A stretch of DNA of 64,000 nucleotides from Cetorhinus maximus (taxonomy: Eukaryota). Location of the stretch: contig NC_135906.1 of assembly GCF_964194155.1 (NCBI RefSeq), positions 14,446,001 to 14,510,000 of the forward strand. Reading direction: 5' to 3'. Below the pieces are notes generated by a model. The model saw only the letters and a program-made list of their open reading frames with translations. It made no database searches and was not told where the DNA came from. The position numbers and the translations under genes are program-made. This document shows positions 8,661 to 64,000 of this stretch, piece by piece. Numbering within the stretch: position 1 is the first letter of the stretch; the number at the start of each line of letters is the position of its first letter.

Positions 8661-8794
8661 TCTTTGGCAATGATCCTCCATTTTTAAACTATACTCCTGG
8701 AGACTAGGGAGTTGTCTGTTTAACAGAATTCAAGAGGGTCCACAATGCTAGTGTTTGTTTCATTCGAATTTCTTCAATATGTTCACATCTTTAA

Positions 8795-30600: not shown

Positions 30601-30696
30601 CTTGACATATTTCTCTAGCATTGTTGCAATATTGCTGTTATTCAGGATGCTCTTAGCAATAACTAGACTACCCTTTTTGGCTCTTTCGATAGCTGC
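30601..30696 (-). CDS. AKAP8L: gene B exon 12
   Basis: 96 nt, phase 0 to 0; AAIERAKKGSLVIAKSILNNSNIATMLEKYVK; taccag acceptor and gtaagg donor. Confidence 0.9.
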
Positions 30697-31493: not shown

Positions 31494-31624
31494 TTTGCGG
31501 TTTCTGTTGTGCTCAGCTGACCTTAAGTGCTGCCCAATGAAGCCAGTCTGCATAGGGATGAACAACTCACAAGCCATACAATGAGCTGCCTCCACCTTTT
31601 TCATGCATTGTTCCATACCAATAC
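31494..31624 (-). CDS. AKAP8L: gene B exon 11 (second AKAP95-type zinc finger)
   Basis: 131 nt; KKVEAAHCMACELFIPMQTGFIGQHLRSAEHNRNRK versus AKAP8L KKVEAAHCAACDLFIPMQ...HNRNRR. Confidence 0.92.
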
Positions 31625-32420: not shown

Positions 32421-32526
32421 CCTGGAGTACATCGTGTTGCTGCATCAGCTGCTTTTTCAGAATAGTTTCATCTCCAATCTGCTCCCGGCGTTTCTGCGTT
32501 TTCTTGTTCTTGTTTGAGATGTATTC
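32421..32526 (-). CDS. AKAP8L: gene B exon 10
   Basis: 106 nt, phase 0 to 1; EYISNKNKKTQKRREQIGDETILKKQLMQQHDVLQ; length fits the AKAP8L inter-finger segment better than the shorter AKAP8 one. Confidence 0.9.
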
Positions 32527-33703: not shown

Positions 33704-33845
33704 ATCCAAGAAGTCAGCAGTCTGAGCTTTGAGTTTGGTCCCAATGAATTTCAGAGTTTCCTTGTGAAACTTGCTCTTCATGTGAGCAGCAATCTCCTCA
33801 TCTTCAAATGTACGGAACTTACACACTGAGCAGGCATATGTTATC
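33704..33845 (-). CDS. AKAP8L: gene B exon 9 (first AKAP95-type zinc finger)
   Basis: 142 nt; [48 protein letters not shown]; ttgcag acceptor and gtatgt donor. Confidence 0.93.
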
Positions 33846-33914
33846 CTGCAAACAAACAAAACAGGATTAACACAAGAAATCATCCAGCACTGAGGACAGT
33901 AATGAAATTATAAA

Positions 33915-36900: not shown

Positions 36901-37086
36901 TATATCGCCGTTCCTTCTGTTGCTGGGTCAAAATCCTGGAACTTCCTTCCTAACAGCACTGTGGGTGTACCTGCACCACATGGACTGCAGTGGTTCAAGA
37001 AGGCAGCTTGCCACCATCTTCAAGGGCAACTAGGGATGGGCAATAAATGCTGGCCCAGCCAGCGAAGCCCACATGCCATAAAAAAT
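33915..37086 (+). mobile_element. Near full-length LINE (endonuclease plus RT, decayed) with tRNA-like 5' head, antisense in gene B intron 8
   Basis: A box about 33919-33930, B box ggttcgaatcc at 33982-33992; DIVILMESYL, VGDFNVHH, SDH, GPDNIP, FDRVWH, FTDD motifs; 3' tail ending cacatgccataaaaaa. Confidence 0.85.
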
Positions 37087-37629
37087 ATTTACACTTCCAT
37101 AGATATTAGCCAACCATTTTAAAGTATTTAAAAACGCAAATGAAATTACACTGCCAATACCAAGACTCGAATGCAAGATCCAGAAGTAATTGTACATTGC
37201 TTATTTTATGGCAATGTTATTCTGAAGTAGATGAAGTGTCAAAATTGAATACCTTGGACTGGTGCCCAAATTCTACATGCAAAGGCACTGCCAGCCTCTC
37301 TTCCAAAAAGGTGAAACCATGGGAGGTGGAGTTACCACCTCCCCCCCAGCTTTAAGTGAAGCAGTTCTATAAACACTGGAGTTTACAGAATTGTTAACTC
37401 CTACAACAGGATGGCACAACCACACATCCAATTCTTCCTCAGTAATGCAGCAAGGGCAGACACAAGCTGAAAAGAGTTGTACACCATTAACAGTCAGTCC
37501 CCATCTTTTCCTAAGCACGCTACACAGAAACTTAGCTTACAGCACTGCACACTTTTAGAACACGCAGATTGTAAAATGGATCAACAAGACATTCTGAACT
37601 CTGGCCAAAATACTAGTAGGCGTCAGTAC

Positions 37630-37696
37630 CTCTCTGCGAGGCGGTCACGGTTCTTCTTGGGTTTGCCAGTCTTCTTCTTCTCTTGCATAGTGGGAA
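37630..37696 (-). CDS. AKAP8L: gene B exon 8
   Basis: 67 nt, phase 1 to 2; FPTMQEKKKTGKPKKNRDRLAE(R), comparable to AKAP8L QRDRMVER. Confidence 0.85.
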
Positions 37697-38651
37697 CTAT
37701 TTGAAATTAAAAAAGGATAAATTGACAATTATAGATAGGAAATTGGGAAGTATGCTTTGTACTGATAAGACTATTAGCACAAACTGCAGATCCAGAAATA
37801 CAACATGATTTAAGAATGTTTTTATACTGCATGATAGGGTGTTATGTTTCTACAACCAAGAAAAACTAATGCCGAATATTAAAACACATGCAGTATGAAG
37901 TTATCACATGTTTAGATAAATGTATATTGTTAAATTGACATGCAAGCCAGGTGTATGTTGCTAAGGCTGTGAATAGTCTCATTTAGTCTGACAGTAACAT
38001 GAAAAGGGATGGAATCTGGCTGCAGAGCAGTTTGTGGTGGAGACTGAAGACAATGGCTTTAGCATTTACAGTGTTTAATTGAAGGAAATTTCAGCTCATC
38101 CACAACTAGGTGTTGGACAAGCAGTTTGACAACACAGGAGACAAAAGCTGAAATGGTTTTCTTTTGGTACTGACGGACGCAGAGAACAACATGCCCAGCG
38201 TCACTGCATCATTTACTATCAGGGAAATCCTTGGGAGCCTCCAGAGGGAATGATGCAGAGACAAAAAGAGGGATTACAGCTGAGCTCTTGCCCTCTTTCC
38301 CCAGTCCTTACTTGAAATTTGCCCAAGCGCAGGAATTCCAACCAGTTTTCTCCTGCCTACTCCAAGCATGCCTCTACTGAGAAGAACTAACTGAGCAGAG
38401 ATTAGGAATCAAACTTAGGATCCTCACTCATTAAAATTTATTCAGCCACCAGGAAAGCCCAGATAATTTCAGTTTTGGAGGGTAAGTGAAGAAGGGAGTG
38501 AATAGCAAGAGTATGACAAATCAATATTCAAACACAAAAACACAGGTGGGCATCTTCGTATTTATGCATTGCACATCTCAACAGAAATCAGGCAGTTATG
38601 CATCATATTTAGAGAAATTACTGAACAAACAACCATTCCAGTCAAACTTAC

Positions 38652-38703
38652 AACGCTTTGGTTTCTTCTCTCCTTTCTCATTTGAATCCTTGTCCTCACC
38701 ACC
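38652..38703 (-). CDS. AKAP8L: gene B exon 7
   Basis: 52 nt, phase 0 to 1; GGEDKDSNEKGEKKPKR; tttcag acceptor and gtaagt donor; keeps frame between neighbours. Confidence 0.75.
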
Positions 38704-40295
38704 CTGAAAAGGATGTAAGCCATAGTAAATCTAAAATTTTGGATCCCGAAGTTTGTAAAACAAAGCAATCCGTTTAGAATTTTGTACCAAAACAAATGCT
38801 GTTCGTAAACAGTGTGCCTTTACAAGTATTGACTATAGTTAACGGATAAACCTCCAAAAATTTAAATGTGCTTCAGCCGCAATCTTAAACACACTCCCAA
38901 TTTTGCCAACGCACTGCACATAGCAACTGACCAACAGATCCCTTATTTTGGTGCTGCCATAGCTTACTATCAAAGGTAGGTGGGGATTCTTCATTCTCTA
39001 AACTTCACTCCCACCTGTTCTATTTCAGTTTCCAACACTGATTTGGGATGGATGGCATTCATTGACAATAGGTTGCCTTTTCTTCACCCTTTTCCCCAAG
39101 CATAATACATTATCTAACCCTAGACCGAATTCTTGTCCACAACCACTTAAAACTGAAGTAGTTTGCTGAAAAAAAACATATGTTGCCATTCAATCTTGCC
39201 ACAAGTTGGTTATTTGTCACAAAGAATGCCATAGCAACATAAACATGCAGGGTGTCATGTAGTTGAACTTGAATTTTGCTTCCTGAATAAAACTCAATGA
39301 GTGTTTTATTGGTTGGGACCAATCTTATATCGGACAACTTACATAATCAATTTTAGTTAACAAAATGAACAAATTTTCAACAGTTGAAGCTCTTTTCTCT
39401 CAATTAATTAGAAACCATATCAACCACAAATTCCATCTCCCATGGTACTGTTAAGTACAATTAAATGCTGTCCATGGCTGAATGGATTTTAATCCTCAGG
39501 TAAGGCAGTGATACTTTCAAAGGGCAATGCTGATCATCTGCACGCCACCCACTCCCACAGTCTGGGAATACCAATTCCAACCCCGTGACCATCTCTGACG
39601 AAGCTATCAGTAACTCCCTAACAGCATGGGTACCTACTACCACCTTCTCAATGGCAATAAGGGATGAGCAACCAATGCTGGTTCATAATGCTCACATCCC
39701 ATGAAAGAATATATAAAAAGCACGGAACAGAGACTGAACTTAGCATTGTACCAGTCTATAGACCTCCAAAACCACACCAGAGAGTCTAACTGCTATCCGA
39801 GGTTCAATTGCATAGCACAACCTAACACATTCACACATGCTGATTATTGAATGTAAAACTATTCACTTTATAGGAAAAAATGTTGAAATCGCAGGTTTCA
39901 TGTTCTTGCTAAGTCCCAAAGTGCTTCAAGTCAGTCCTACCAGTAGTGCTATATGGTCAGAAGAGGCCAGCTCAGACAGCGAACTACCCTTAGCACAATT
40001 AAATTGTCGGCCTAGACTATATACTCAAGTCTCTCAATTGGGGCTTGAACTATCCACCTCTCAGAGATAGAGTGCGCGACCACGCAGCCAAGCTGGATAC
40101 CAAAGGCAATGTGTTGACAAAATTCAAACATCTTCTGTCTTCCTCCATCTTTTCTAGCAAAAAAGTCTTCAGACTACATTAAGATAATTCCAATCCTAGC
40201 TTTGAGTAACAAATGTAAAATTATACCAAATTCCAACATATGTCTTGGCTCTATTCAGGTAGATTTGAAGAGTCTTTGACAATAGTAGTACTTAC

Positions 40296-40324
40296 TGATT
40301 CAACCCCATCATCTTCTTTGTCTT
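40296..40324 (-). CDS. AKAP8L: gene B exon 6 (29-nt micro-exon)
   Basis: ttatag acceptor and gtaagt donor; EDKEDDGVES; phase 1 to 0 is needed to join exons 5 and 7. Confidence 0.7.
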
Positions 40325-40910
40325 CTATAACAGAAACAAAATCAATTGCTTTTGAATAGTTATCATGTGACCAACATAAAGGTTTTAAGTATAGCAACAA
40401 CCTTATTACTGGCAATTTTCTACGGTAGTTATGATAGTCTTACATTATTCTTTTTACGACAATATTGCTTTCACTGGATGAGGTGACGCGCACATTTTTA
40501 ATTTGCATAATCCCCAACTAACTTGATTTCACAAATTGCCCACAGAACAATACTCAAAGCTCAATTCTCCAGCCACCCCAACTGGTGGATTGCAAGCAGA
40601 ATCATTCATCCTCCCCACAAACTCCACCGCGCCCCCCTCCCACTCCATATTTTCATTTGGACAGGTCCTCGTTTTCCTCAAGTTATTCTTCTCTGCAGCA
40701 TATTGTGCATTGCAACCAAATGCACAACATGACACAGCCCCATTTTCAGCCAGCACCAGGATAAAGAACGCACCCGATCCCAACCTTTAGATGTCTCAGT
40801 TGTTCAGCACCCCTACACAATAGCTTAGACCAGGACTCAACTTGCATGTGCTCATCTCATTTATAAACAGCACAAAAAGTCCAAATAAGTAACATTGTAG
40901 TGTCTAGTAC

Positions 40911-41022
40911 CAGCATCAGAATCTTCACCATCATCTGTTTTAGCTTGCTTGTTTTCAGGGTCTTCAGTGCTGCTTGTTGACTGTTTCCTCTTCCTACCTG
41001 GACCACCTATAACCTTCTTCCT
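40911..41022 (-). CDS. AKAP8L: gene B exon 5 (basic NLS-like region)
   Basis: 112 nt; RKKVIGGPGRKRKQSTSSTEDPENKQAKTDDGEDSDA; tatcag acceptor and gtacta donor. Confidence 0.85.
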
Positions 41023-41955
41023 CTGATACAAAGCAAAAACATTTGAATCGCATTTCAAAATCACATTTCAAAAACTCAACATTTGTTTCTGATTAATTAA
41101 AGACTGTTTCTGGTGATGCAAAAGTCAGATTTGAAGATCAGGTAATTATAGAGATGAACAATTCATTATAAATGGTTGCATATAAAACCATGCATTATAG
41201 TACGTGTGGTTTGAACTGACTTAACTGTAATGCAGCTACAGGTGCATGGAGTGTACCCAATGACAATGCAATTTGATTGGCTAAGGTGTACTTTACAATC
41301 TCCCCTCTTGAAAGGACTTTTCCCATGGCTCAGTATGAAATGCACATTTTTCAAGCACCCAGGCTAGAAAAGCCCTCAAATATCCCAGTATGAGAGACTG
41401 GCTCCCAGCTTAGTGGCAGTTTCAGTACTATAAATCAGCCCTGACCTTATAAATCAATCCCTGCCTTGAAAGGCCCTCTATCGATACCCAGTGATACTTG
41501 TATCCTGCCAACACTCACCACCTTCGCTCACACATGGATAACAGACAAAAGCTTCTGAGGGAGGGGAGTGGGCAAGAGTAGAGGGAGAAAAGACGTTCAA
41601 AGTCTTACATCAAGCCAAAACACTCAAGTGCTTCATACAATGAATTACTTTGAAGCCAGTCCTACCTCACTACAATACCTTAAAAAAGCACTATAATGTC
41701 CAAAACCCTAATTCTTCTTTGGATCCTCAACTAAGACAGCTACAAATTCTTCCACAGATGCCGAAAAATGTCAAAATTATACTTAGTGTCAATTAAATCA
41801 GAAAAAGGAACGCATCATTTTTGGATAGTAAAAAAGGGGAAATGGACAATCCACTGAAAAGAAATATCCTGTAACTTGGCCTTCTTGGTCTTTCACTGAT
41901 CACACTCATTGGCTACTGATTGAAATAAAATGCATTGTTTAAAAAAGGTACTTAC

Positions 41956-42418
41956 GCCTCTGTTTCGATTCTTGTCTTTCCTTCTCAGTCTGCCACCAAA
42001 CGCTCTTGCCGAGCCCTGAGCTCGGAACAGGTCCATGGGGATAATGTTTGGGGAGAAGAGCGAGGGGAGGTTTCTGGTGGAGGAGGCAGCATTGAAGCCT
42101 CTGCCTCCCATTGACATGTCATTCCAGTGTGCAGACATCCGCCTGGAACCTCCAGGCTGCATGTAGGGGTCATTCCAGTTTGCTCTCTTATTTGGAGCCC
42201 AGTCTCTAGACCAATTTTGACCCCGTTGGCTACTATATGCTCTGTTGTGGTACTGATCTCTGCGAGTCCCGTAGGAGTTGTCGTAGTGGTCATAGTGACC
42301 TCCATAGGAATCGTTATAATTAGGTCCAGAATCACCGTAACCATAGCCGTAGCCAGATCTGTACGGATCATGGTCATTCATTGAAGACCTGGAGTCATAG
42401 GACTCATAAGGTGTAAAC
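41956..42418 (-). CDS. AKAP8L: gene B exon 4
   Basis: 463 nt, phase 2 to 0; RFTPYESYDSR...LPSLFSPNIIP matches AKAP8L LPSLFSQNIIP; paralogous to 2228-2699. Confidence 0.9.
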
Positions 42419-43309
42419 CTGAAAGAGTTGCAGAGCAAGCAAGGAATCTAATCAGTAGCTGGAAAGGACGATGGCAAAAGCCTGCCACTCAGTGACAGCA
42501 GACTAAAAACTAAACAGGATATTTCAGGTAATCATGGTGTGTGAGGTTATTTCTTCATCTGTAAACAATGTCTAAATTACTGAATACAGCAGCAAAAGGT
42601 GGCTTACTGCAACCAAAAAGACAAAATCCAACTTTCCTTCATAGGGGTGGGAAAACAATACACTTGGCCAACAGCAACCTTTGGAGACAAATGGCTCACG
42701 TCAACTGTCCAATGTTCTATTCTCCACCCCATCCCCCATCACAAGTGTTCATTGGCTGGATGCCATCCTTAAAATCTTAACCTAATTGCTGGAAAGAATG
42801 GAGATTTTACAAGAAAATTACAGCATTCTATACTCTCCACATTACAATGCATAATTTTACTGCAGATGATAATTCTTGACCCATACACATTGAGAATACC
42901 CTGTACAATTAGCCTAAAATCAATTATGCTGACAATCCCAGTGGCTCCAAATTAAAACTAAATTTTGCACCTGGCTAATCTGGCACAGAATACCACACAA
43001 AACAGTCAGATTTAACTTTGTTCTAAACAATGAGTTGTTAGTTAAAGCCTTATATATTGAATCCATGCTTAATTTGAGTTAAAGTTCAAGATGTAATTAT
43101 AAAGGGTGTAAAATAATGAATAAATCAGGGTTTCTCACCATAGTGTAGATAAGCACACATGTTTCTTTGGGGTTGGGCGAGGGTGGAGGGAGGAAAGAAG
43201 AAATGTGTGCCAGCCTATTTAAATTTGAAGTGTCACATCAGTCCCAAGTGCCAATTTCTTCATTTTATGTGTACAGCATTTTACCATTTAGTGACCTTCC
43301 AGAAGATAC

Positions 43310-43517
43310 CTGTTGTATTGGCCTGAAGAGCGACCTGGTGTCTTATCACACTCTAACTGAGAGAGCATGTCCAGACGTTGGTTGATCTTAGCGATGATGG
43401 AATCTGTGTTAGGGTTTTTAGGAGCATCCCAAGCTTTATTACCAGAGTTATAGCCATAATTTCCTGAATAATTTTCTGAATTATCTTGGTTGTAATTGTA
43501 ATCATAGCCATCATACC
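43310..43517 (-). CDS. AKAP8L: gene B exon 3
   Basis: 208 nt, phase 1 to 2; GYDGYDYNYNQDNS...DSIIAKINQRLDMLSQLECD. Confidence 0.9.
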
Positions 43518-44704
43518 CTAACAGGAACAAAACACAAAAGATCAGATATTCACATTAGAAAAAAATAATAGAAGTTATAGGAACAGAAGTTGGCCTTTCA
43601 GCCAGAGTCTGTTCCGCCATTCAATAAGATCATGATTAATCTGTACTGTAACTCAATTTACCCACAACTGAACCATATCCCTCCAAATCTTAGAAATCCA
43701 TTGATCTGTTCTGAAAATTTCAGTTGTCCCAATATTCCTAGATTTTCAGGGGCAAACTGTCCTTTGTTTGAAAAGCTGCTTCTCAACTTCACTCTGAAAT
43801 AGCCTAGTTCTCATTTTAAGACTGCATCCTCCTTGTTCCAGATTCCCTCAGAGGTAATAATTTGTGTTTATCTTAACAGATTGCTTAATCATTTGAGAGA
43901 CCTTAAATAAATAGAACACCCCATAAACATCTAAACCCAAGGGAATACAAGTCCATTTTATGCAAACTGTCAATCCAAGGTCAATATACCCTTTCTTAGG
44001 TTATGTTTCATTTGTTCACTTTTCATGGGAAGTTCAGGGCACCCTTGAACTGAAGAGCTGCCTTCTAAGACTAATTGGAAAGACCTCACATTCCTTTATA
44101 TAAATTGCATTTTAAAGCACCATCTACTATTTATTTTCATGCTTCAAATAGTGCCAAATTTTAAAGAAAAGGCAAACTTTTACCAGAAAGCAACTGCAGT
44201 AAAATTACTAATGATATTTCTATACAAGCAATGGGCTTGGGCACAGGACTACTACCCTCACTTCACTGTAGTATCCCAATCACCGGAAGAGATGCTAAAT
44301 ATGCTTAACTGGATCCCACAGCATTATATTAAGAGTTACAAGTTCTTCTGGTGCCAAAACAAGTATGCCTCCCTCACTTATCACTACCAATACCAGAGCA
44401 GCTTGCTGCTTGTAGCATTTTGCTGGGTGCAAAATGGCTTCTGTGCTTTTCTATATAACTGTCAACATCCAAGTCATGGCCTATAAAGGATTTTGGACAG
44501 TTTGAGACAATATTTGAAGGTATCAATTAAGGTAAATTAAGGTCTTGAGCACCTCTGTACATTAGTCACATGTTCTACTCACAGCAGACTACTAGCCCTT
44601 AGAAGGATGGACAGCTCATCCCAAGAGAGCAGACAATTGCAATGAACGAACTTAGTTTAGTTTCTTTCCCATTATAAGCAGCTTTTAATATTACTCTAAC
44701 AACA

Positions 44705-45068
44705 TGTCCCTATCCCTAGCAAGGCCAGCATTTTTCTCCCATCCCCATTTACAGTTTTGATACAATTGAATTGCATGTTAGGCCATTTCAGAGAGCAGTT
44801 AAGAGTCAACCAAATTGCTATGGGTCTGAGTCATGTAGAGGCCAGACCAGGTAAGGATGGTAGATTTCCTTCCCTAAAGGACATCAATGAACTAAACAGC
44901 TTTTCAGAACAATCCTAGGCATTTCATGATCAGCATTACTGATTATTCCAGATTTAATTAACTGAATTAAAACACACCCAACTACCATGGTAGGATTCGA
45001 ATTATGTCTCTGGATCATTAGTCCAGGCCTCGGGATTAGTTCAGTAAAATAACCAATATGACACCATA
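44705..45068 (-). mobile_element. SINE-like internally deleted derivative of the tRNA-headed LINE
   Basis: matches LINE 5' head/UTR (33915-34235) joined directly to the LINE 3' tail (gggatggg...aatgctggcc). Confidence 0.65.
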
Positions 45069-45325
45069 CCTCACTATCCAATTTATACCCAACATTACAA
45101 ATTTGACTATCAACATTAACTGATTCTAACACAAGTTCTGCTTTAAGCCATTTATTCCTTATACATGCTTACAATGTTAACTGTGATTGAAGTAGCATTA
45201 ATATCTGTCATAGCAATAAAACAAGCTTGAATATTTTAAAATAGCAAATGCCTGACCCCATTAAGCCCAACAGGAAGTTTTCCCAATTCTTGTATTTTTA
45301 AATGATAAGATTAAAAGCAAATCAC

Positions 45326-45373
45326 CTTGACCATCGTCTCCTCCAGCGTTCCAAGAATCATCCTCTCCATACT
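45326..45373 (-). CDS. AKAP8L: gene B exon 2 (48 nt)
   Basis: tcttag acceptor and gtgatt donor; EYGEDDSWNAGGDDGQ; phase 1 to 1; homologous to gene A YG..WNA exon. Confidence 0.75.
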
Positions 45374-48364
45374 CTAAGAGAAACAGAATCACACACTGAT
45401 CATCATTTCAGTTACTTCAACTGATTTCACAAAAAAAATGCACTTCAGTTTGTTTGGAAGGGAGTAAAAACCAGAAGTTTAGAATCATGTTACAATCCCA
45501 CTGACGAGACAATGCAATTCAGTGTAACTATTAAATTTAGCTATGCCCAAGGACTTAAGAGAAACCAATTCTTCCACGTGACACCAATTTTCACCCTTAA
45601 GGGACTGACATGTAACTTGCTCAACTGACCATTGCTCATGCAAGCCAAGCTGAACGGGTTGGTTTAATAGGCATGTTCAGCATAATATTCACCATATCAT
45701 CCCCACCCCCCACTAAAACCTTTCCTCAACCAGACATTTCAGTGCCAGCTGTAATGCATCCTATTGCCACCTGTTCATGATGTACTGACTCAATACAACA
45801 ATGTAACCGCTCGCCTTCTCAATCTCACACATCAGTGATACAAAGCTAAGCAATTAGGCTGATCCTGGAAACATTTTAAATTTTGGTACAGAGTAGGTTG
45901 CAGTAGAAAATGCAGAGAGAAAAGCACATAGGCTGTTAGATCTAAGGTAATGGGGTGAAGAGATCACAATAAAACAAAATAAGCTCTGGGAAGAGTTTTT
46001 TTAAAAAAGTCTATACTTGATTATTAAAACAACTCAGAATAGAAACTGAAGGAATCCTGTAGCTGCAGGAATTGTGAATACATAGATTACAGAACCATAA
46101 CTCAGCTCAAAAGATAGAGTCAAGTCAGCATGGAAGTGTTTAGGGTATTCAGGAAAAATGGAGATGACAGAAGGGAGCTTTAACAGTTAAGACAAAAATA
46201 AAATTAAGGAAACAGAATTTACATCCCAAGAGGACAGGAGGCAGGAAAATGAAAATTTGGCTTGAGCTAACAAGCAGTGCACAAGTATAGGTGTACCAGA
46301 AATTAGCCGTAGTAATTTAACATATGTCTGCACGTTGATACTCAGTCTACAATAGCTCTACAAGGTTAGACCCGAGGCAGTGGAAACTTTACCTTGCTAA
46401 TGGCAGAGATTATAGAAAAAGTAAGCATGTAGTAATAAACCAAGTGACTGTACAGTGGTAAACATGTAAGAATCTGTGTTAGGAATGTACTGGGAAAAAA
46501 TAAGTGAAAGGCCATAACTGAATCTCTCACTAGTAAACAGATTTTATTGCCATCTTGCTGAAGGAAGATTAACCAGATGTAGTTAGAACGTGTTAACATT
46601 ATGGTATTATGTTAGGCTATAATTAAACATATAAACAAACAGACACTGAAGCTGCTTGTATCTTTTTCATCTAGTCTTGTTGTGCAGTCAAGTCAGATAA
46701 GGTTTAATCTACTGAAGAGTTCCTGGTATATGATTTATAATTTATAACTGGCACCTACATCTCATATACTCCATGAAAGAGAGTGCATTTTATTATATCA
46801 TCCACTTGCTTTAATAAAGAGTATTAACTAGATGGTTCAATGTTTCCTTGTCCTTGTACTTATTAAGGGATATCAGCATGCATGCATTCTTCACAAGGGC
46901 AATCGGAATGTATACCAACATCTTATATAACTCAATCAAGAACAAAGTTAACAACAGGGTCTTGCTACAAGTCTGTAGACAATTGATGGCAAGTTATACG
47001 CTCATTCCTATTCATCCAAACTTTGTAGCAAAAATTGTGACTTCATTCAATACAAATTAGGAATGCCCAGTTGTAAGCCCATCAGAAGAATCAGAATAAA
47101 TAGAACTCATGAAGCAATTCCTGTACTATATCAGATGTGATTGTACAAGCAAGCATTGGATTGGTGACAGTAAGATTTTGTTCAATGACAGTGTCAGGAA
47201 AAAACACAAGATTTCAACAGGGCAAGCAACACCACTGAAGGATGACAGAAAATAAATTAATTGGGATTACTCAGAGCCTCCATTACACAATTCCCTGTCT
47301 GCATGCATTCATGCCGACCTCACATCATTAATCTTGCCCTCAAAGGCCCGGCAACTTCAGTCATATTTGCACTTATATTTCATTCATGTTGGTTTGTCCT
47401 TTTTGAATCCTGGAAATTTGGAATGGGTTGTTCATTGGTGGATAGATCCTAAATTAGAACACCAAATCTATTAGCATCAGCAACTGGAGATGCAAGCAAT
47501 TAAAGCACTTGAAGCTCAGACTTTACAGCCAGCACCAAGAAAATGAAACTCGCCATTCATTACACTTGCCCACAGTCTGTGGGGTTTTGCACTGTATTTT
47601 GCAGAACCCTCTACAGGAGATCTGGGATCTGAGAGAACAGGGCAAGGAATGGATGGTGTGTCATCTCAACGAGACTGAAGAATTCTTACTGAGATTCGCA
47701 GAGTCAAAAGTCAAATCATGTACAGAAAGCAAGAGAAAGGAGAAAGAAAAACGGGATTAGGAGAGATACAAGAGATTTTAAAAAATAGAAACTATTATTG
47801 TTTTAAATTGTCCATAATTGAAATCTGGCAGAATAAGATCCCATAAGTAAATTCCCAGTGCCAAGAGAGGATGTTTGACAGCAATTAAAACTTAAGCACG
47901 CCATTAAAATTTCACTTACATTTGAATGGACAAGCCCCAACTTCTTCTGCAGTGTTTAGTGTATATCTATTGGGAAGTAATGCAACTTCAACCTTTTCAC
48001 ATATTTCAATGCTGAGTCCACTCAGCGAAATACTGTTAGAGCAGGGCAACTCCTGCATTCCCACATTTAATTGTGCATATACTGGATGCTTGCTGTCAGA
48101 TTTACTGCTCGGCAGAGTTGGGCACTGATGGTCTCATTATTCTTACCTCAAAATCCCACCTATTGGTCTAACCCTCGCCACCAAATCTCCTAACCCCTGA
48201 ACGTTCCATAGTACATGGCTAATAAAGACAAAAAAGCTCAGGACCCTAAATATAGCTTAATTGAGGTAAAGTGGGAAAAACTTTTGAGAACATAGGGTAT
48301 GGGATGAGACAAAAACATGGCAGAGATGCAAAAGAAAAGGAACCTAGAGATATAGCAAAGGATG

Positions 48365-48805
48365 CTCACAGTATCACAGAATCTTTACAGTGCAGGAGGC
48401 GTTCATTAGGCCCATTGAGTCTGCACTGGCTCTCTGAAAGAGCATTCCACCTAGTCCCACTCCCCTGCCTTATCTCCGTAACTTGCACATTCTCTCTTTT
48501 CAGGTGGCAATCCAATTCCCTTTTGAATATCTCAATCAAATCTGCCTCCACCACCCTTTCGGGGAGCTTGCTCCAGACTCCAACCACCCTCTGGCTGAAA
48601 AAATGTTTCCTCACATCACATTTACTCCTTTTGGCAATTATTGTCAAATGAATGTGAACAGTTTCTCACTATTTACCCTGTCCATGCCCCTCAGGATCTT
48701 GAATACCTCTATTAAGCCTCCTCTCCTTTTCTCCAAGGAAAGCAGTCCCAACCTCTCCAATCTATCCTCATAGCTACAGTTCTTCATCCCAGGAATCATT
48801 CTTGT
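48365..48805 (-). mobile_element. CR1-type LINE 3' fragment
   Basis: FFSQRVVGVWSKLPERVVEA; same subfamily as 7612-8660. Confidence 0.85.
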
Positions 48806-51800
48806 TGAACGTATGTATTTCACGGAATTATAATGCTAACTTTCTGCCCAAATATAAAGCTAAAAGCAATGATATATTTCAAAAGGCGTTTGCCAAAACA
48901 TACACAAATATGACATTTTAGCAAGCTGTTGCAAACCAAGTAGCGGCATCAGTAACTTGGTTCGCGTAAACCAAATTCCTGCAGCAACCATGTCATTATT
49001 CCCCTAGTTAGACTTTGGAACTGGGCTCCCAACTCCACCATCAATCTTTGCAAAACCTCTTGTCCACCAATTCTGAGAGTTTTAATTCTACTCTTTAAAC
49101 AGAGGAAGCCTCGTGACTGACAAACATCTGGACATCCTCAGCAGATGGCTGCTCATTTTCTGTGAAGTGGGTCCTACAAGTATCACACGACAAACTGCAT
49201 TCTAACATGATAAAATGTGCAGAATATTCAAAGGAGCACCTTCGTGGCAACCAAAGTTTAAAGAGGTAGTGGTTTGAGTAAGCTTTTGAATGAAGGATAT
49301 AAAGTAGTAAGCTAGAATGGTTTGACAGCACTGGGCCAAGATAGTTAAAGTTGTTGATGGAAACTTCGCAATCTGACGAGCCAAAAACTCATCTGTACAA
49401 CAAGGTGGGCTTCAGCAGGGGTACACGCCGCGTAAAAGATGTGATTTTTTACAAGATCGATATTGAAGGAAAATGGCCTGTTCCACTTATCAAAAAGTTA
49501 AGAATTTCTCAAAAGTCAAATTGAATCATTTTAAAAAATAATTATGAGAAGTAATATATAAAACTTGGTTATACTGCTCTGTGTTTAACCCATTTGGTCA
49601 AATGTATTTTTTGATAACATGCCAATTTGCCCCCTTATATTTCTATGAAGCTTTTTAATATTAAAATAATCAAAATGCAATTTCCTGTTTATTACAAAGC
49701 AAGACAGGAAAGGTTCATTTTAAAAAAAATAAATTTTATACACACACACCCTCCTTCTGTTGTTCTCAGGTGTTGATCTTCACACTAGTATTAAAGCCTT
49801 TATCAAGCTGAATTCTTTACAAGCACTTGAATGGATTATAGGATTACAAATACATAGCCTGTATTAACTGTAAAAGAACCAAGGTCTTTTTTTAAAAACC
49901 TCAATAAGTGTGAAAAAGCTTTTAATATTTCTGCACATACACCACCTGCAGCAGTATGAAAAGTAATGAAATTCAACGCAGGGGCAACAGTTAGTTACCA
50001 GGATGACAAAACAGCCAGCAGCAGCCATCAACAAGGCCATAGGGGCCCTGAGAGAGATTTGAACAAGAATAAATCTCCAAATCACTCACAATCATCATGG
50101 GTCATAGTATATCTATTTCGAGATGCTCCTCCTCTCCGACCCACTTTTTTTTTTAAGTGACAGGTGTGGGGGTTCCAATTAGTGAATGGATTCAACCTGG
50201 GGTGGGCCCCAGCTTCTTTGGAGGCTGTAAGTGATAGAGGGTAGCAGAGATCTCAGGCTCGGGCCACATGCTTTTGGGACCCTTTTCAGGCTGGAAAGGG
50301 TAGGATGTCAGAGTGGCACCTAAGACTACATACTGGCAAGTTGCAAATGCCTTTCAGTCCACAATGGGCAGCAGATTCAGGCTGCAGATTGTATTTTCTA
50401 CTGATGTGTGTGGAGAATTGATTGGAGCAGGAATCAAGCCAGAACAGTCAGTTTTTAAAGGAAAGGGAAGCATTGTACGATGAAAAAGCAATGCAAAAAG
50501 AGGAACTGCTACAGAGTGTTAGACTATCTACACTGGAGGCATATTACAGGGGCTACATAGCTTAAAAAGGTTAAGAAAATTTACATTTCCAATGTAGCCA
50601 AATGTTTAATCAGCTTCAAGACTCAGAAGTTGTAAAAACGACACAGCACCACCTCCCTGTGAGCACCGGAAATGTCTATTAAGTGTTGCATTCAATTGAC
50701 AAGTTTAATGTTCCAGGTAATACATGCAAGCTGTCCCAAAATAAGAATGAGAGTGTGCAGTTATTTTGCAGTGGGATCTGTATCAATTATCTTCAGCTAA
50801 ATTAAAGTGAACAAATGAAATTGTTCACATATGGTAAATAAGTTAAACATGCAACATGTAGAATTAAAAAAGCAGGACGATTTTGAAAGGGATTCCAAGA
50901 ACATTCCCTCACTGTCTAAAAAATACAGCAAAAGGAATTAATGAAACTATTATGTTGGGATATATAGCCAGGAATACAAAGCTATGATAACACTTCATAA
51001 TATACTCAATAACACAAAAGTACATAAAATACAATTTAAACTTGTGATCATCTGCTACATCTTAATGTCTCAATGGCTAAATAATTCTGCATTTTTTCCC
51101 CTCCTTTAAACTTGCAAGAAAATACTTATTTGCAGGACTTGATGTCCACTCTCTCATTTGGGATATGTTTTCCATCTCCAAGTAACCCTAAAGTAACCAG
51201 TCTGAATGAGAAAGTGACCTGTCATGAATTTGAAAAGTTGTTCTAAAACTGCTGAGCCTTCTAGAACTGGATGACTACTAAGGTAAAAAGACATCAGTGG
51301 ATACAAAAGTTGTTGCAAGGCCTCCCACCCAGTGAAATGCACCCATTACGATATTAGCCCACAAGTTATAAACACAAAGTTCCTCCTGGCACGTGAAATT
51401 CCTCTTCAGGTTTTAGAGAGAAGCAGTAACACAATGCACTAATCCAGCCATGTTTATTTTCATACTCCTGAAGGAACCCAGGTGAAATCAGGATCTCATG
51501 GTGGCAACATGCATTAATACAAGCCACTCCTAGATGCTATTTTTAAATTCAATCCCAATGCAGATCTTAAAATAATCCTAACCTAGAAAAATCATTCATC
51601 CAATTCTCTAATCACCAAGGCAACAACATGATGGAGACAGTTGCACTAGTTTATCTTTGTAACAGTTCATTACAACAGGAAGCAACTACCAGTTGTTACA
51701 CGCAGACAAAACATACAATCGGATGTATAACAATCTGCAACTTTAGGGATTGACACAGAAATAGTAGTAGGTCTTCCAGCCCCTACAGCCTATTCTAGCA

Positions 51801-54800
51801 TTGAAATCAGATCATGTCTGATCCGTATCTAATTCATTTTCCTTAATATCTTTTATAAGACCATGAGTGGATTGTTTTTTAGGCAGAGTTGGGAGAAAAG
51901 CAGGACTTGATGGATGGCAAGAATTAGTCAGCAGATGCTATGCTAATATTGCAGTAATCTGGCTCCAGCAAACAGACTTGAAACTCCTAGAATACAACTT
52001 TCTTCATATCAATATTGCAGCAAAACAATGACCATGATCATAGAATGGTACAGGACAGGAGGCAGCCATTCAACCAAACGTGCCCATGTTGGCTCTCTGG
52101 TAGAGCTTACCCAATTAGTCCCATTTCCTTGGTCTTTGCCCAGTAAATTTTTCCCATGTAAACAAGTTAACTGTCACAGAATAAAACAAAATGTTAAAAT
52201 CAAAAACAGAACTAAAGCTAGGAAGCATTGAAGCACTAGAACTGACTTTCAACTTACTGGGTTTGAGGAGCAACTTGACAAGATTTAAACTTTCACAATG
52301 GCACAAAACTACTGCTGACACTGTTGCACCCAGACCAAGGGAGAGGAGAAACCACGAGAGAAACTACACAAGGTTCGCCCCATAATCTGTACTTTACCTA
52401 CAAGGCCTCTGCATATGCATTTAGCAGTCTTTACCAACGTTGCACCCATTACAAATTGGAGGAAGGGGGAAAACAGGATTTGAAGGGAAATGTCCGAATC
52501 ATTGAATAAAGACAGTCGTAGTAAAATAAAGAATGCCAAGCAGGGAATACTAGTGTATGCATGAATGAATAGTCATCAATAGTAGGGCAGACCAAGGAGA
52601 GGCAAATTGACAGGAGCAAAGGGTATGTGGGGGACACAATGCTGGAGATTACAAAGGTAGGATGGGCAAAAGCATGGATGTATTTAAAGAGCTTGCTTTC
52701 ACAACATCCCAAAGCATTTTACGGCCAATTTTGACGTGCAGTCACTATTGTAATGTCAGAAACCTGCCTGTCAGTTTCCATACAGTCCCAAAAATATCAA
52801 CAAGGTAACGACTGGATCATTTACTGTAGTAATGTTGACTGATGAATAAATATTTGCCAAGAGGAAATTTGGGAGGGAATGATCATTTTGAAGTCAGGAC
52901 AGAGGTAATGGGAGAACAGGACACAGCAAACATTGCAATATTTTGAAATGGATTGTAACTTGGAAGATTCAAGATGAGGAACTGGTTGGAAAAGTCAAGC
53001 CTCAACGTGAAGGGAAAGACTGAAATTTCAATGGCCACAAGGTGGGCAATGTGGCAAATGGAAGAACGCAAAGTGGAAGCGTGGAACAAATCCAACCTCA
53101 ATAATGAGGATACAAACTTATTAAATCAGCCCTTCCGACAACCAGATAAAAGTACATACGCACCAATGGACCAAAATGGCATTGGATTTGCAGACATGAA
53201 ACTGAAGCAAATCTCTATTCACCCAGATGTTGTTGAAGAAATAGCTAGAACACTTAAGAAATGTTTAATGCCAATAGTGGTTGTACAAAATTATCCTCCC
53301 TTTACTATCAATATCACGCTTCATTTTGAGCACAATACTCTTGACAGACTAAAATTAGGGGCTGTTTTCGACCCTTACATCATTTGTTAATTCTAATGAA
53401 CAGTTACTGTCCCTCTCAACAACTGCTTCTGGGGATAAACTGCCATGTTTGTTTCACCTCTAATTCACCACTCTATCCAGCATTCTCATCTAGCATACTT
53501 AAAATGCTAGTGAACAGGAGAAAAAAGTAACCTTTCACACCAAGCAATTCACTAATTGCTTCACAGAATTCAAATCCTCACAAAAAAAATTGTTTGAGGA
53601 AGCAAAGTAAAAGCTAAATCTTCAACCACTTCATAGTTTACTCAATCTCCCTGATGCAGGCTATCCAAGTAGTCACAGAGCTTTCTAGTGACTTATTCTG
53701 GAGTAGGAAATCACATAACTTTAATAACTGATGGGCTACAGAGCTTGGTCTAGTTTTGATGAAAAGCTCAGTCGGTGTCATGGAATGGGAAGATTTAGTG
53801 TTCAACATTAGAGAATGAGGTGCGAAAAAGAATGTCAGTTTCACTGTAGTTTCACCTGGCTGGATAGGTTGGGCATGTAGTTGAAATATACACAAACACA
53901 AAGGCTGTGAGGTTCTACTGCTGAATATCCTACTAACCTGCACAGTCTAAGCATATACACAAAGTACAACCACCTCATAAGATAACTATACATTAGCAAT
54001 GTCTCAGGGAAAGGAAAGGGTGAGGGAAACAAAAACACAATGCCCATTTTGCATGCTATATCTACTGCCTACACTAAGATGAACTGTTCAGTATAAGCAT
54101 GCAAAAGATATGGACCTGTGTGCTGCTTGATTCTTAAGTACAGGACAAGAGTCAACAGAAACCTAAAATGCAGTCATCACAGTGACAGAAACCACAATGT
54201 TCAATTAAACAATTTTTGGAGGGAACAAATTAATAACACCAAATTCTCACCACTGTCATAGACGTTTGCAAAGCAAACAACTTTCCCCTTTTCACCCTTG
54301 CTTGTTACAATTACGAAAGAAAGGGAACTAAAGTTCAGATTGAGATCTATCCTTGACATTCAAGCTGTTGGGGCCATAGAAATGAAATTCATAAAAAAGC
54401 CAATGAGCCAAGAATATAAAGCAAGGTTGGACAGAGGCATAGTTTCACATTTACAGGTGGAAGGGAAAGTTTTGAAGAACATAACATATATTTATTTATA
54501 TTGTGCCCTTAACATAATAAAATATTCAAACGCGCTTCGCAGGAACAGTGAAGCATTTAACATTGAGCCACATAAGTTGGTCAAAGAGGTAGGATATAAA
54601 GCACATCTTAAGAGGAAAGGAAGGTAGAGAAGTTTAGGGTGTGAATTAATGCTAGGTATGCCAGATTGGGGCCAAGCAATTTTGCTGTTAAAGAGTCAAA
54701 CTTTCTTGTAGTTAGGGATGTAGTGCACAAGTTGGTTACACTCTAAAACAAATACATGCTTCGAAAGTCATACCAAATAAATCAATAATAGAACAATCAA

Positions 54801-55764
54801 CTTCATTAACACAGGATTAAATTCAAAGAATGCACCCAACTCTAAAAACATCCTAGCACACGTGTATAACCAGAAACCACTGGTCAGCTACATGGTCCAA
54901 CATAGTCCTAATTTCAAATAAATACCTGAATGAATGACACATCAAGGCACTTTTGCATTACAGGATAAATATAAACTTTTTTTTTTAACCCTATGGAAAC
55001 AAATTACATAGTGAAGTGGAGTGGCACTGACCATCCACACATCTCTTCGCAAATTATAGGTCAACATTGAACTTGAAGCCAGCCACCTTTTAGCCTGGCA
55101 TGAGGGACAAGGAAACAGACTGGGGTAAAGAATGCTCTAAAATAAGTTAAATTGGCAATGCAACCACTTCTAAATATAGCATGGCATAGTGTTGAGCCAA
55201 AAAATCCCCTGCACTGGCAATCTGGTTGAAAAACACCAGGAGGCATCTCACTTAGCTTTGAGAACTGTCAGAAAAATTATACAGGAATCCCTCTCCTAAA
55301 TCACTAACATGTAAGCAGAAACAGGGTTAGGACCATTAGCCTTCCACAGTCGAAGTGCCAGGCAATAATTATCTGAGCTTACCCATTAAGAACTAGGAAC
55401 CACCCTCCCACCATCCATCCATGACAAGGTTGGATTGGTTCAGGAAGGTCCAGCAGTATCTTCTCAAAAATCAGAGGTGGACAATCTTGCCGGTATCTCA
55501 ATTTAATTTTAAAAATGCAAGTCCAGAGAGACTGAAGTTGCTACAAGATTGACTAGCAAAGGAGTATGCAAAAAGAAAAAGGTGCAGGGTAAGAGCTTAG
55601 TGGTACCTGAAAGGGTGATAAAAGTGGATTCAATAAACAACCTGCAAAAGAGAATTGCATAAATGCTTGAAGGGGAACATTTTGCAAGGATGTGTAGAGT
55701 GGAACGAGATGGATGAGCCCTTTCAGAGCTGAGATGGGCACGATGAGTTGAATAGTCATATGAA

Positions 55765-56218
55765 TCATACAAATTTACAGCATGGAAGGAGGCCATTTGG
55801 CCCATTGCGTCTGCACCAGCCAACAAGAAGTCATCCAGCCCAATCCCACTTTCCAGCACTTAGTCCATAGCCTTGCAGGTTTCATGTACATGTTCAAATG
55901 CTTTTTAAATGCTGTGTGTGCTTCTGCCTCCACCACCCTTTCAGGCAACAAGTTCCAGATCCCCATCACTCTGTGTGTGTGTGTGAGAGAGAAAAAAAGT
56001 TCCCCTCCAAACCTTTCTAGACATCTTCTTAACCCCCTGATCATGGACCACTCAACCAAGGGGAAATAGAATTGATAAGAAGGCCCTATCTAGTCCCCTC
56101 AATTTTATACACTTCATTTGGCCTGCCCTCAGCCTTCTCTGTTCCAAAGGAAACAACCCTAGCTTATCCAATTCCCCCTCGAGAGCTAAAACTTTCCAGT
56201 GCAGGCAACACCCTGAAT
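55765..56218 (-). mobile_element. CR1-type LINE 3' fragment
   Basis: RVMGIWNLLPERVVEAE plus CR1 tail. Confidence 0.75.
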
Positions 56219-56229
56219 CTTAAAAGAAT

Positions 56230-57320
56230 TAATAAGGGGAACGAGGGCTGACTATTAAGGAAACTCGCCCAGATTGCTGCAGAGCTCCTTCACTTAAAGA
56301 GCAGGGGGGTGGTCGAGGAACACGCCGAGGCTCGTGGGTGCGCGCGCGCGAGAGCGAGCCCGGGAGCGTGCCTGGGACAGGAGGAGGCGGCGGCCGCCAT
56401 TTTGTGGCGTTTGAGCCAGTCAAGGGAAGATGAGACCCTTTTCAACCGCCATCCTCCCAACACAAATAAGCGTTTCCCATTAAACATCCCGAAAATAAAT
56501 GTCTTTTTTTAAAATCAGGAACAGGGCGGATTTTTTAAAAAATTCAGTTTCACAATCGTCACTGAGGATCCATCTCAACCGCACGTGGGGAAGCGTGCGT
56601 CACGCACTTAAATTATATTTGGCTGGGCTCATAGATCTTTTCTTAAGTACGGATTTGATTTATTTTATAAACGCCAAACAGTCGGGCGGATTCTTAAAAA
56701 AGAATTTAAAAAACGCGAGCGAAATAATAAAGGAATGTTCGACCTCCCTCTTTCGGAGGGAGCCGAGCTGGCCGGCAATGATTGACAGCACCGTTGGCCA
56801 ATCACAGGTGGCCCCGGGAGCAGCTCGGCCAATCACCGAGGGAAAGTTGGGCGGGGCCATCACAGCGGCAAGGCAGCCTCCGATTTATCGGGGCAAAAAA
56901 AGGGGGTGGGGGAGGAAAAAAAACAAACTTCGGGGCGCCATCGAGAGCATCGTTCTCTCAACAAGTTGGCAGCGGACAGAAGTAAAAAGAATTGCTGGAT
57001 GCATGAAAACGTCGAGGGATGTGTGACTTGTGGGGGAGAAGCCCGATTGTACCCACCTCCGTAGCGACCGTCCATTGTGGTTCGGCTTCAGAAAGAACCG
57101 TTCGGGCCTCGGCGACGTCAATAGCGCTGAGGCGGTCAGGTCACGTGGGGAGGGACGTTGCTTGCGTGCATCACGTGGGATGTAAGGTCCGCGGATCACG
57201 TGTGGAGGCACGTCGCCTGCGTGCGTCGCATGGGGCTGCGTGGCCTGTGGGTCACGTGCTCGCACCAGATGACATGCAATTTGTGCGGCCACTTGTCTTT
57301 TGATCCGGCAGACGGACAAT
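56230..57320 (-). promoter_or_regulatory. CpG-island promoter and intron-1 regulatory region of gene B
   Basis: CpG-rich; four TCACGTG E-boxes at 57141-57258; TGATTGACAG-N9-CCAAT at 56779-56802; YY1-type motif at 56395-56403. Confidence 0.8.
57057..57075 (-). CDS. AKAP8L: gene B coding part of exon 1 (MDGRYG)
   Basis: acaATGG, 19 nt, GAG|gtgggt donor, in a CpG island; comparable to human AKAP8 MDQGYG. Confidence 0.8.
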
Positions 57321-62869: not shown

Positions 62870-63900
62870 TTGGGGAGGCAGCTAAGTAACAATGGCGGGG
62901 AACCTGAAGGTTGCAGCTTTCACCTTGCATCTCATTAGGTAAATTAGCATTGTGCGTCAGCCCGATCGACAGCACCCATCCGCCAATCGGAAAGGGAGGC
63001 AGTGCTGCGCCGGCCCACAGGACGCACCAATCAACGGCGGTGGGCGGTTCTTCCGGAGCTAGAAAATTCTGCAGGAGCGGGGCAGAGGCTTTTTATTTGA
63101 ATTCAACGAAATCAAAATGGATTCTTGGTACTCCGGTAAGCGCTAAAACGCTTTTCTTTAACCTTTGAAAGCTCTTGTTCCGTTTACAAGGCGAGTTTAA
63201 TACTTCGCGATTCTAAGAGGGTAATCTATATTTTTTATCTGGAGTGTATGGGAGGGAAGTAGAACGACTTTTATTTCCGTCTCGAGGCGCGTCATGTTCA
63301 AGATGAAACCAACCTAACTTGCTGGGAGCCCATGTCCTGCCCACTCTATGCCTGATTGGTTGTGGGCCCACTTGCCACCGAAATACCGCCGCGCGATTGG
63401 TTAAGGGGACTGTCAATCAGCACCCACTATGTTAGGTTGTCTGAACGCGTTGGGATCACTGTCGTATTTTTTTAAAAACAGCTTAAATAGAAAAAGTTAG
63501 CTCATGTTTTTTTTTTAACTTTTAGTGAGAGCAAGTTAGTGATTTTTTTAAATAAAAAATAAAACGGTCGCGGACACGCAATTCACATGGGCGGTTTAAA
63601 TATTTAGGTTGCGAACTCATTTATTCCTTTTTTTTCCCCCCTCTTTGTCCGTGTTTTTCTTATCCAAAGAAAAGGAAGCGCCTTTCCCTTACTCCGTGTG
63701 TGTAATCGATGGCTGGTTCATGTTAAAATCCCGCATCCTCCGCCTTTTTCAAACATTTTCTCAAGACGCTACAAAATGGCGGCTACTTCTCAGCATGGAT
63801 TGTTCCAGCCGCGCGCGGCCGAGTTGCGCGCGCGAGCACGCGCCAACCTAGCGTACGTGCGCGCGCGAAAAACCCAACCCTTGCATTTGAAAGCCAGAAA
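62870..63900 (+). promoter_or_regulatory. CpG-island promoter and intron 1 of a divergently oriented gene C
   Basis: CCAAT at 62983 and 63027, GC box near 63042, ATTGG-N9-CTGTCAATCA at 63396-63419, YY1-type AAAATGGCGG at 63773-63782, GCGC-rich tract. Confidence 0.75.
63117..63135 (+). CDS. Putative first coding exon (MDSWYS/G) of a third AKAP8-family paralog
   Basis: caaaATGG Kozak context, exactly 19 coding nt, then CCG|gtaagc donor; same length and phase as exon 1 of genes A and B; downstream exons lie outside the window. Confidence 0.55.
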
Positions 63901-64000
63901 TACTACAAATACTCAATAGGGCGGGCAGCGTCTGTGGAGAGGAACAGAGTTAGCATTCATCAAAACTGAAGGAAGATAGAAGGTTAAGAGTTTAATAAGC

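What the first reader, a model, noticed from the sequence alone, without database searches (positions are those of the whole stretch)
63117..63850. Probable third AKAP8-family paralog, head-to-head with the AKAP8L-like gene
Seen: a plus-strand ATG in aaaATGG context gives a 19-nt phase-1 coding exon (ATGGATTCTTGGTACTCCG|gtaagc, MDSWYS/G), the same size and phase as exon 1 of gene A (MDGRFS/G) and gene B (MDGRYG). Its intron 1 has the same motifs at similar distances as A and B, and 63760-63840 resembles the reverse complement of 56335-56415 (ctcaa.acgc.acaaaatggcggc...tgt.ccag...gcgcgcgcg.gcac). Known: mammals have only AKAP8 and AKAP8L in tandem at this locus, with ZNF326 elsewhere. Inference: an inverted duplication produced a third member, giving a three-gene AKAP95-family cluster in this lineage.
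Basis: partly seen in the sequence, partly recalled or inferred. Interest (0 to 1): 0.8.

Follow-up and report, generated by a model that had tools for sequence, protein, structure and literature searches.

The report
Third AKAP8-family gene in cartilaginous fishes
This shark DNA holds the first exon of an intact, spliced third copy of the AKAP8/AKAP8L gene, turned the other way round from its two neighbours; it likely arose by an ancient duplication shared by sharks, rays and chimaeras and likely encodes a nuclear splicing regulator, which makes it a real but ordinary extra family member.

Summary
Confirmed. The 19-nt exon at 63117-63135 starts a 13-exon plus-strand gene (C) that ends about 25 kb right of the window and encodes an intact 630-aa AKAP95-family protein. 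Contigs from four public runs (guessed RNA) join the 63135 donor to the next exon, and show 10 of 12 introns removed. Genes A, B and C share all 12 intron phases and lie in the order BRD4(-), LRRC8(+), A(-), B(-), C(+), WIZ-like(-). C is sister to B (SH-aLRT 99.9; alternatives rejected at AU p<=0.0012 on the full alignment). Chimaera, rays and sharks have both B and C, so the duplication predates their split. Whether A is AKAP8 and B/C are AKAP8L, or all three are chondrichthyan-specific, is unresolved. C keeps both zinc fingers and the Tyr/Gly-rich N-terminus and lacks the mammalian PKA-anchoring helix, so it is likely a nuclear RNA-binding splicing scaffold. Orthologues are already auto-annotated as 'AKAP8-like' (P0001, 99.7% identical). 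My literature searches found no description of the cluster, and amphibians also have extra copies.

The parts
62960..63116 (+). CpG-rich region upstream of the ATG with two CCAAT boxes; likely promoter and 5' UTR of gene C
   Evidence: Sequence; CpG counts; 30-nt likeness to the upstream region of A, 0 of 200 shuffles. Promoter role inferred
63117..63135 (+). Gene C coding exon 1 (19 nt, phase 1)
   Evidence: Sequence; GT..AG joint 63135->67185 in run X14, and the same joint with a few differing letters in X3 and X15
63136..64000 (+). Start of intron 1 of C (4,049 nt). The other 12 exons lie beyond the window (window numbering continued; contig C29 position = 14446000 + number): 67185-67232, 71684-71888, 74258-74738, 79345-79456, 80530-80564, 82556-82598, 84046-84112, 84212-84353, 84560-84665, 86391-86521, 88048-88143, 88657-89064 (stop); AATAAA at 89265. 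The zinc fingers are in exons 9 and 11
   Evidence: Joints; open 630-aa frame; PF04988 genome hit; poly(A) signal
63354..63418 (+). Intron-1 motif cluster: two GATTGG (reverse CCAAT) and GATTGG-N10-TGTCAATC; an NF-Y plus PBX/PKNOX-type composite (name recalled)
   Evidence: Same order and spacing in A and B; genome count
63760..63783 (+). Intron-1 core shared with B, containing CAAAATGGCGGC (YY1-type site, name recalled)
   Evidence: 22 of 24 nt identical to B, 0 of 500 shuffles
29494..57075 (-). Gene B, 13 coding exons, about 650 aa, sister paralogue of C
   Evidence: Homology model (the exon-7 donor probably lies 3 nt further on); 91% identical to P0025; no reads laid
42419..42502 (-). Conserved end of intron 3 in B (counterparts: A 2700-2783, C 74174-74257) with a shared upstream AG at -40; candidate alternative 3' splice module
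   Evidence: 49-56 of the last 60 nt identical among A, B and C, against 26-38 at the other 11 acceptors
1..13754 (-). Gene A, 13 coding exons, 632 aa; continues left of the window to -13230
   Evidence: Homology model, identical over all 632 residues to database protein P0031

Best explanation
63117-63135 is the first coding exon of an intact, spliced, plus-strand AKAP95-family gene (C, 630 aa) that likely arose when the ancestor of neighbouring gene B was duplicated as DNA and inverted in early cartilaginous fishes, and it likely works as a nuclear RNA-binding splicing and transcription scaffold rather than as a PKA anchor. Shown: 13 exons with an open frame; splicing of 10 of 12 introns; intron phases shared with A and B; B+C as sisters; B and C orthologues in chimaera, rays and sharks; two complete zinc fingers; no PKA-helix motif. 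Inferred from human AKAP95 (not tested here): the zinc fingers bind pre-mRNA, and the Tyr/Gly-rich N-terminus drives condensates and binds hnRNP partners. Inferred and less sure (about 0.6): A is the AKAP8 orthologue and B and C are co-orthologues of AKAP8L.
For: Three PF04988 loci on contig C29, one on the + strand. A 630-aa open frame, all introns GT-AG, phases 1,1,2,0,1,0,1,2,0,1,0,0 in A, B and C; shared introns and intron-1 motifs exclude retroposition. Joints. The C model is 99.7% identical to P0001. B+C: FastTree 100, SH-aLRT 99.9. Trees pairing B or C alone with AKAP8L are rejected at AU p<=0.0012 on 390 columns under LG+F+G4, JTT+F+R4 and LG+C20 PMSF. Callorhinchus P0012 groups with C and P0013 with B. 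C-B dN/dS is 0.24 over 497 codons and 0.13 in the finger region. Flanks: BRD4 C-terminal domain on the - strand to the left and WIZ-like fingers on the - strand to the right, so only C (and the LRRC8 gene) run against the block. For A=AKAP8: best LG and JTT tree, SH-aLRT 91.4; its position; 40 diagnostic columns give A 18 AKAP8-like against 14 AKAP8L-like, and C 12 against 17. Function: passages of PMC5105168, 10.1101/536839 and PMC12203939.
Against: A+AKAP8 is not established. The tree joining A with B+C is not rejected (AU p 0.36; a tie under PMSF), it is best on the zinc-finger columns alone and has support 88 in the 123-row domain tree. With outgroups, 10 of 11 rooted arrangements survive. 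On the N-terminal columns alone, rejection of a split B/C is weak (p 0.04). The runs are only guessed to be RNA and are contigs, so they give no level, tissue or strand. Orientation of C in other species was not checked. No functional test was made.
Confidence: 0.85

Rival explanations
1. All three genes arose by duplications within cartilaginous fishes from one ancestral gene, independently of the AKAP8/AKAP8L split of bony vertebrates. This changes the orthology labels, not the reality of C or its sister relation to B.
For: A+BC is not rejected (AU p 0.36-0.52) and is best on the finger columns; clade support 88. A is more identical to C (62%) than to coelacanth AKAP8 (59%). All three lack the extra short segment seen near the N-terminus of bony AKAP8 (alignment).
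Against: A+AKAP8 has the best likelihood on all columns (LG, JTT) and on the N-terminal columns (LG), and SH-aLRT 91.4. A lies in the AKAP8 position next to BRD4 (human order recalled). Slow shark rates or gene conversion could make the three look alike.
Confidence: 0.35
2. B and C split in the jawed-vertebrate ancestor, bony vertebrates lost one copy, and early gene conversion between the facing copies made B and C look like sisters.
For: Exon 4 has low synonymous divergence among the paralogues (dS 0.30-0.38 against more than 1.2 in the fingers), which conversion could cause.
Against: B+C also holds on the finger columns alone (alternatives p 0.001 and 0.011). The conserved stretch has counterparts in coelacanth AKAP8L (P0041) and in the ZNF326-like gene, which points to old constraint. 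No bony-vertebrate C-type protein appeared among the rows placed in trees.
Confidence: 0.08
3. C is a pseudogene, an assembly duplicate, or the exon belongs to an unrelated gene.
For: None found.
Against: Open 630-aa frame, about 61% identity to B, spliced contigs in four runs of four organism codes, and C-type proteins in 11 of 19 listed chondrichthyan species.
Confidence: 0.01

Closest known systems
AKAP8L (HA95/HAP95) of bony vertebrates
   Same: Domain order (YG-rich N-terminus, basic patch, two AKAP95 fingers, acidic tail); 59% identity to coelacanth AKAP8L over the kept columns; no PKA-helix motif; shared LDMLSQLE and QDL.QD.G.EHF.KKVEAAHC.ACDLFIP stretches.
   Different: Present as two copies (B and C); C runs on the opposite strand; orthology to AKAP8L is not proven.
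AKAP8 (AKAP95)
   Same: Same family and locus; both fingers conserved; 56% identity to coelacanth AKAP8.
   Different: C lacks the mammalian amphipathic PKA/DPY30-binding helix (motif scan: 0 matches in C, 4 overlapping in Pongo AKAP8; PMC12203939 passages say it is mammal-only).
Database 'A-kinase anchor protein 8-like' of sharks, rays and chimaera (P0001-P0012)
   Same: These are the orthologues of C: 63-99.7% identical.
   Different: They carry the same automatic name as the A and B types; nothing in the names marks three paralogue groups.
ZNF326 (ZIRD, DBIRD complex)
   Same: AKAP95-type fingers and the exon-4 start.
   Different: Separate, distant branch; in this genome on contig C18, about 2 Mb from a second BRD4_CDT hit.
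Extra AKAP8-family copies in amphibians
   Different: They fall inside the bony AKAP8L or AKAP8 clades and evolve fast; C is old and slowly evolving.

Membership tests
AKAP95 family (AKAP8/AKAP8L/ZNF326) | PF04988 AKAP95 domain above cut-off | tested here: met
   157 bits against cut-off 26.8 on P0001, 99.7% identical to C; genomic exon hit 50.4 bits
AKAP95 family (AKAP8/AKAP8L/ZNF326) | Two C2H2 AKAP95-type zinc fingers with all ligands | tested here: met
   C-x2-C-x12-H-x5-H at residue 342 and C-x2-C-x13-H-x5-H at 435
AKAP95 family (AKAP8/AKAP8L/ZNF326) | Tyr/Gly-rich N-terminal low-complexity region and basic NLS-like patch | tested here: met
   22 Tyr, 27 Gly and 7 YG in the first 260 residues, followed by RKRK; composition only
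AKAP95 family (AKAP8/AKAP8L/ZNF326) | Nuclear location, pre-mRNA binding, condensates, splicing activity | not testable with these tools
   Shown for human AKAP95 (PMC5105168 and 10.1101/536839 passages); inferred for C
AKAP8L orthology group | Groups with bony AKAP8L to the exclusion of AKAP8 and gene A | tested here: inconclusive
   A+K8|BC+L best under LG and JTT, tied under PMSF; A+BC not rejected
AKAP8L orthology group | Lies in the BRD4-AKAP8-AKAP8L-WIZ block | tested here: met
   BRD4_CDT to the left, WIZ-like fingers to the right (Atlas lead only); human order recalled
True A-kinase anchoring protein | Amphipathic RII-binding helix after the second finger | tested here: not met
   A recalled AKAP consensus pattern gives 0 matches in the tails of A, B and C, 4 overlapping in Pongo AKAP8 and 1 in coelacanth AKAP8; no counterpart in the alignment
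Bidirectional (shared-promoter) gene pair | Divergent starts within about 1 kb in one CpG island | tested here: not met
   ATGs 6,042 bp apart; two separate CpG-rich islands; transcription starts not mapped

The most novel reading that the evidence does not exclude
Cartilaginous fishes built their own three-gene AKAP95 cluster independently of the AKAP8/AKAP8L split, so that split is confined to bony vertebrates rather than dating to the start of vertebrates; and the three shark copies cross-regulate one another through a shared, ancient alternative 3' splice element in front of exon 4 whose -40 acceptor shifts the frame.
Probability: 0.2. Interest if true: 0.55.

Novelty: new member of a known kind. 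Interest (0 to 1): 0.33.

Why it matters
It corrects the family inventory. Cartilaginous fishes have four AKAP95-family genes (A, B, C and ZNF326), and the shared database name hides three old paralogue groups. The slowly evolving trio is useful for dating the AKAP8/AKAP8L split and for studying the PKA-independent ancestral role of the family. The N-terminal Tyr/Phe balance differs (B 24/5, C 22/6, A 11/16), and Tyr-to-Phe change alters human AKAP95 condensates (10.1101/536839 passages), so the trio offers a natural comparison. No new mechanism is implied.

Tried and rejected
Rfam scan of L043, L003 and L004 (30 kb, most of gene C): 0 matches. PDB sequence search with P0001: 0 matches. RNA structure at the exon-4 acceptor: 63 predicted pairs, 0 with compensatory change on 3 sequences, so no support. 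Faster evolution of B than C: B-unique changes exceeded C-unique in 12 of 12 non-independent relative-rate tests, but only 1 had p<0.05, so not claimed. Rooting with ZNF326 and cyclostome rows: 10 of 11 arrangements not rejected. The full bootstrap tree timed out; only SH-type and AU values are used. No RNA holder listed on record; 18 of 24 listed runs were guessed RNA. No earlier scan findings for this genome. The C14 PF04988 hit is not a fourth gene but an intronless decayed copy of A. Literature searches (PMC open-licence plus bioRxiv only): AKAP8L+AKAP8+shark, 2 papers (PMC9454494 passages read, not about this; the other listing only); AKAP8L+cartilaginous, 1 unrelated listing; AKAP8+gene duplication+chondrichthy, 0; AKAP95/HA95/ZNF326/evolution, 12 listings; AKAP8/WIZ/BRD4/synteny, 8 listings; AKAP8+AKAP8L+intron retention, 12 papers, 10 listed, passages of one read. 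None of what I saw describes the three-gene cluster; subscription papers, figures and supplements (for example the tree figure of PMC12203939) were not seen. Absence of a type in a species means nothing, because the databases are clustered at 90%.

Full report
Coordinates are window positions; numbers above 64000 or below 1 continue the same count along contig C29 of G000 (contig position = 14446000 + number).

Observation. The exon is there: ATG at 63117, 19 nt, donor gtaagc. Genes A (13754, -) and B (57075, -) begin with 19-nt phase-1 exons too. The stated 81-nt likeness to B is above chance (score 36, 0 of 500 shuffles) but rests on a 24-nt core around CAAAATGGCGGC. Whole-intron alignment is significant only for C-B (0 of 200; C-A 11 of 200; B-A 12 of 200), yet the order and spacing of three motifs are the same in all three genes. 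The composite GATTGG-N10-YGTCAMTC, defined after seeing them, occurs about once per 4.3 Mb in the genome (925 matches) but in intron 1 of each of the three genes. The names NF-Y, PBX/PKNOX and YY1 for these motifs are recalled.

The gene. A genome search with PF04988 gave six matches: four on C29 (two in A, one in B, one on the + strand right of the window), one on C18 and one on C14. With 200 kb to the right and 150 kb to the left fetched, homology searches found a + strand counterpart for the larger exons of A and B. Contigs of four public runs, guessed to be RNA, skip 63136-67184 and 67233-71683 and eight further introns between 79456 and 88657, each in 3 or 4 of the 4 runs or, for one intron, exactly in 2. 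The model has 13 coding exons (63117-63135, 67185-67232, 71684-71888, 74258-74738, 79345-79456, 80530-80564, 82556-82598, 84046-84112, 84212-84353, 84560-84665, 86391-86521, 88048-88143, 88657-89064), all introns GT-AG, and one open frame of 630 aa, 99.7% identical to database protein P0001. A (632 aa) and B (about 650 aa) have the same 12 intron phases; their models rest on homology and database matches, not on reads.

Neighbourhood. A BRD4 C-terminal domain lies on the - strand about 220 kb left of A. A 779-aa LRRC8-family frame lies on the + strand between them. WIZ-like finger exons lie on the - strand to the right (Atlas leads at 0.95 to WIZ clusters, low recognition value). The human order BRD4-AKAP8-AKAP8L-WIZ on one strand is recalled. 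C is therefore the inverted member. B and C face away from each other with ATGs 6,042 bp apart and separate CpG-rich islands, so a shared promoter is unlikely.

Relatives and tree. A search with exon 4 returned 77 proteins; the chondrichthyan ones fall into three groups matching C, B and A. Taking one row per species and type, and leaving out P0031, isoform duplicates and three unnamed partial rows, 11 of 19 listed species have a C type and 5 have all three, including a ray (Narcine) and the chimaera Callorhinchus; where contig lengths are listed, the types of one species mostly share them. FastTree on 49 rows makes A, B, C, AKAP8 and AKAP8L five clades and joins B with C at 100. On 27 chosen rows and 390 columns, B+C has SH-aLRT 99.9, and trees that pair B or C alone with AKAP8L are rejected at AU p<=0.0012 under three models. 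The B/C duplication thus predates the holocephalan-elasmobranch split and is not seen in the bony vertebrates sampled. The deeper question is open: A+AKAP8 versus BC+AKAP8L is best under LG and JTT (SH-aLRT 91.4), but A+BC is not rejected (p 0.36), ties under PMSF and wins on the finger columns; only A+AKAP8L is rejected on the full alignment. Outgroups do not fix the root. The C18 gene groups with Mobula ZNF326. The C14 match is an intronless, stop-ridden copy 88% identical to A.

Likely function. C keeps both fingers, a Tyr/Gly-rich N-terminus (22 Tyr in 260 aa), an RKRK patch and an acidic tail, with dN/dS 0.24 against B. For human AKAP95, the fingers are needed for pre-mRNA binding and the N-terminus binds hnRNPs; HA95 and ZNF326 also enhance splicing of a reporter (PMC5105168, passages). 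Tyrosines in residues 101-210 are needed for condensates and splicing (10.1101/536839, passages). The PKA-binding helix is a mammalian insertion (PMC12203939, passages), and a recalled consensus pattern finds none in A, B or C. C therefore likely works as a nuclear splicing and transcription scaffold; this is inferred, not tested.

Side result. The last 60 nt of intron 3 are 49-56 nt identical among A, B and C, against 26-38 at the other 11 acceptors. Synonymous codons in residues 91-150 are mostly unchanged (42 of 47 C-B, 39 of 43 C-A, 33 of 37 B-A; roughly half in most other stretches). All three have an AG at -40 that would shift the frame, and a coelacanth AKAP8L isoform (P0041) translates the homologous stretch. 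A conserved splice-control element is the simplest reading; gene conversion is the rival; no reads were laid there and no structure or Rfam support was found.

Novelty. The protein is already in NCBI and UniRef under the automatic name AKAP8-like. Six searches of the open library found no description of the three-gene cluster; the passages I read of a 2025 review list three vertebrate members only. Extra copies also occur in amphibians. Verdict: a real, old paralogue that I found nowhere remarked on, a new member of a known family; interest 0.33.

Noticed in passing
L003:174-440 (+), window 42502-42240 (-), window 2783-2520 (-): The end of intron 3 and the start of exon 4 are conserved at nucleotide level among A, B and C, and partly in the ZNF326-like gene, with a shared frame-shifting AG at -40; candidate conserved alternative-splicing or autoregulatory element.
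   Followed up: partly
L055:7309-8879 (G000:C14:53262309-53263879): Intronless decayed copy of gene A, 88% identical, with stops: a processed pseudogene.
   Followed up: yes
L024:2330-4666 (+): A 779-aa LRRC8-family frame (PF12534 plus LRRs) between BRD4 and gene A; not part of the human block as I recall it.
   Followed up: partly
L052-L053 (G000:C18:15.89-15.91 Mb) and L057 (C18:17.94 Mb): ZNF326-like gene about 2 Mb from a second BRD4_CDT hit, as expected for the BRDT-ZNF326 paralogous region (recalled).
   Followed up: partly
L005:8836-9060 (-): A lone C2H2 finger exon of WIZ/ZNF644 type (likeness recalled) 32 kb from the next WIZ-like exon, with a CpG-rich spot about 3 kb away; it may be a WIZ exon or a separate gene.
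   Followed up: no
window 29700-29864 (-): The acidic tail of gene B holds an 18-nt tandem repeat coding EGEGAE units; the chimaera orthologue P0013 lacks the run.
   Followed up: no
window 43517-43310 (-); database proteins P0014, P0016-P0018, P0022, P0023, P0028: Several B-type database isoforms lack the segment coded by exon 3. A plain skip of this 208-nt exon would shift the frame by one base, so they need one extra base; B exon 3 begins G|GTATGA, which would allow re-splicing at a donor one base inside the exon (recursive-type splicing; inferred, untested). C exon 3 has no such GT.
   Followed up: no
database proteins P0253, P0304, P0305, P0326, P0328, P0335, P0337: Amphibians carry fast-evolving extra or diverged AKAP8/AKAP8L-family members, including a third gene in a caecilian.
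   Followed up: partly
window 8900-11700, 14600-15980, 17900-22300, 34200-37100: LINE-like reverse-transcriptase and endonuclease fragments (recognised by eye) in several copies, direct and inverted, in the introns of A and B and between the genes.
   Followed up: no
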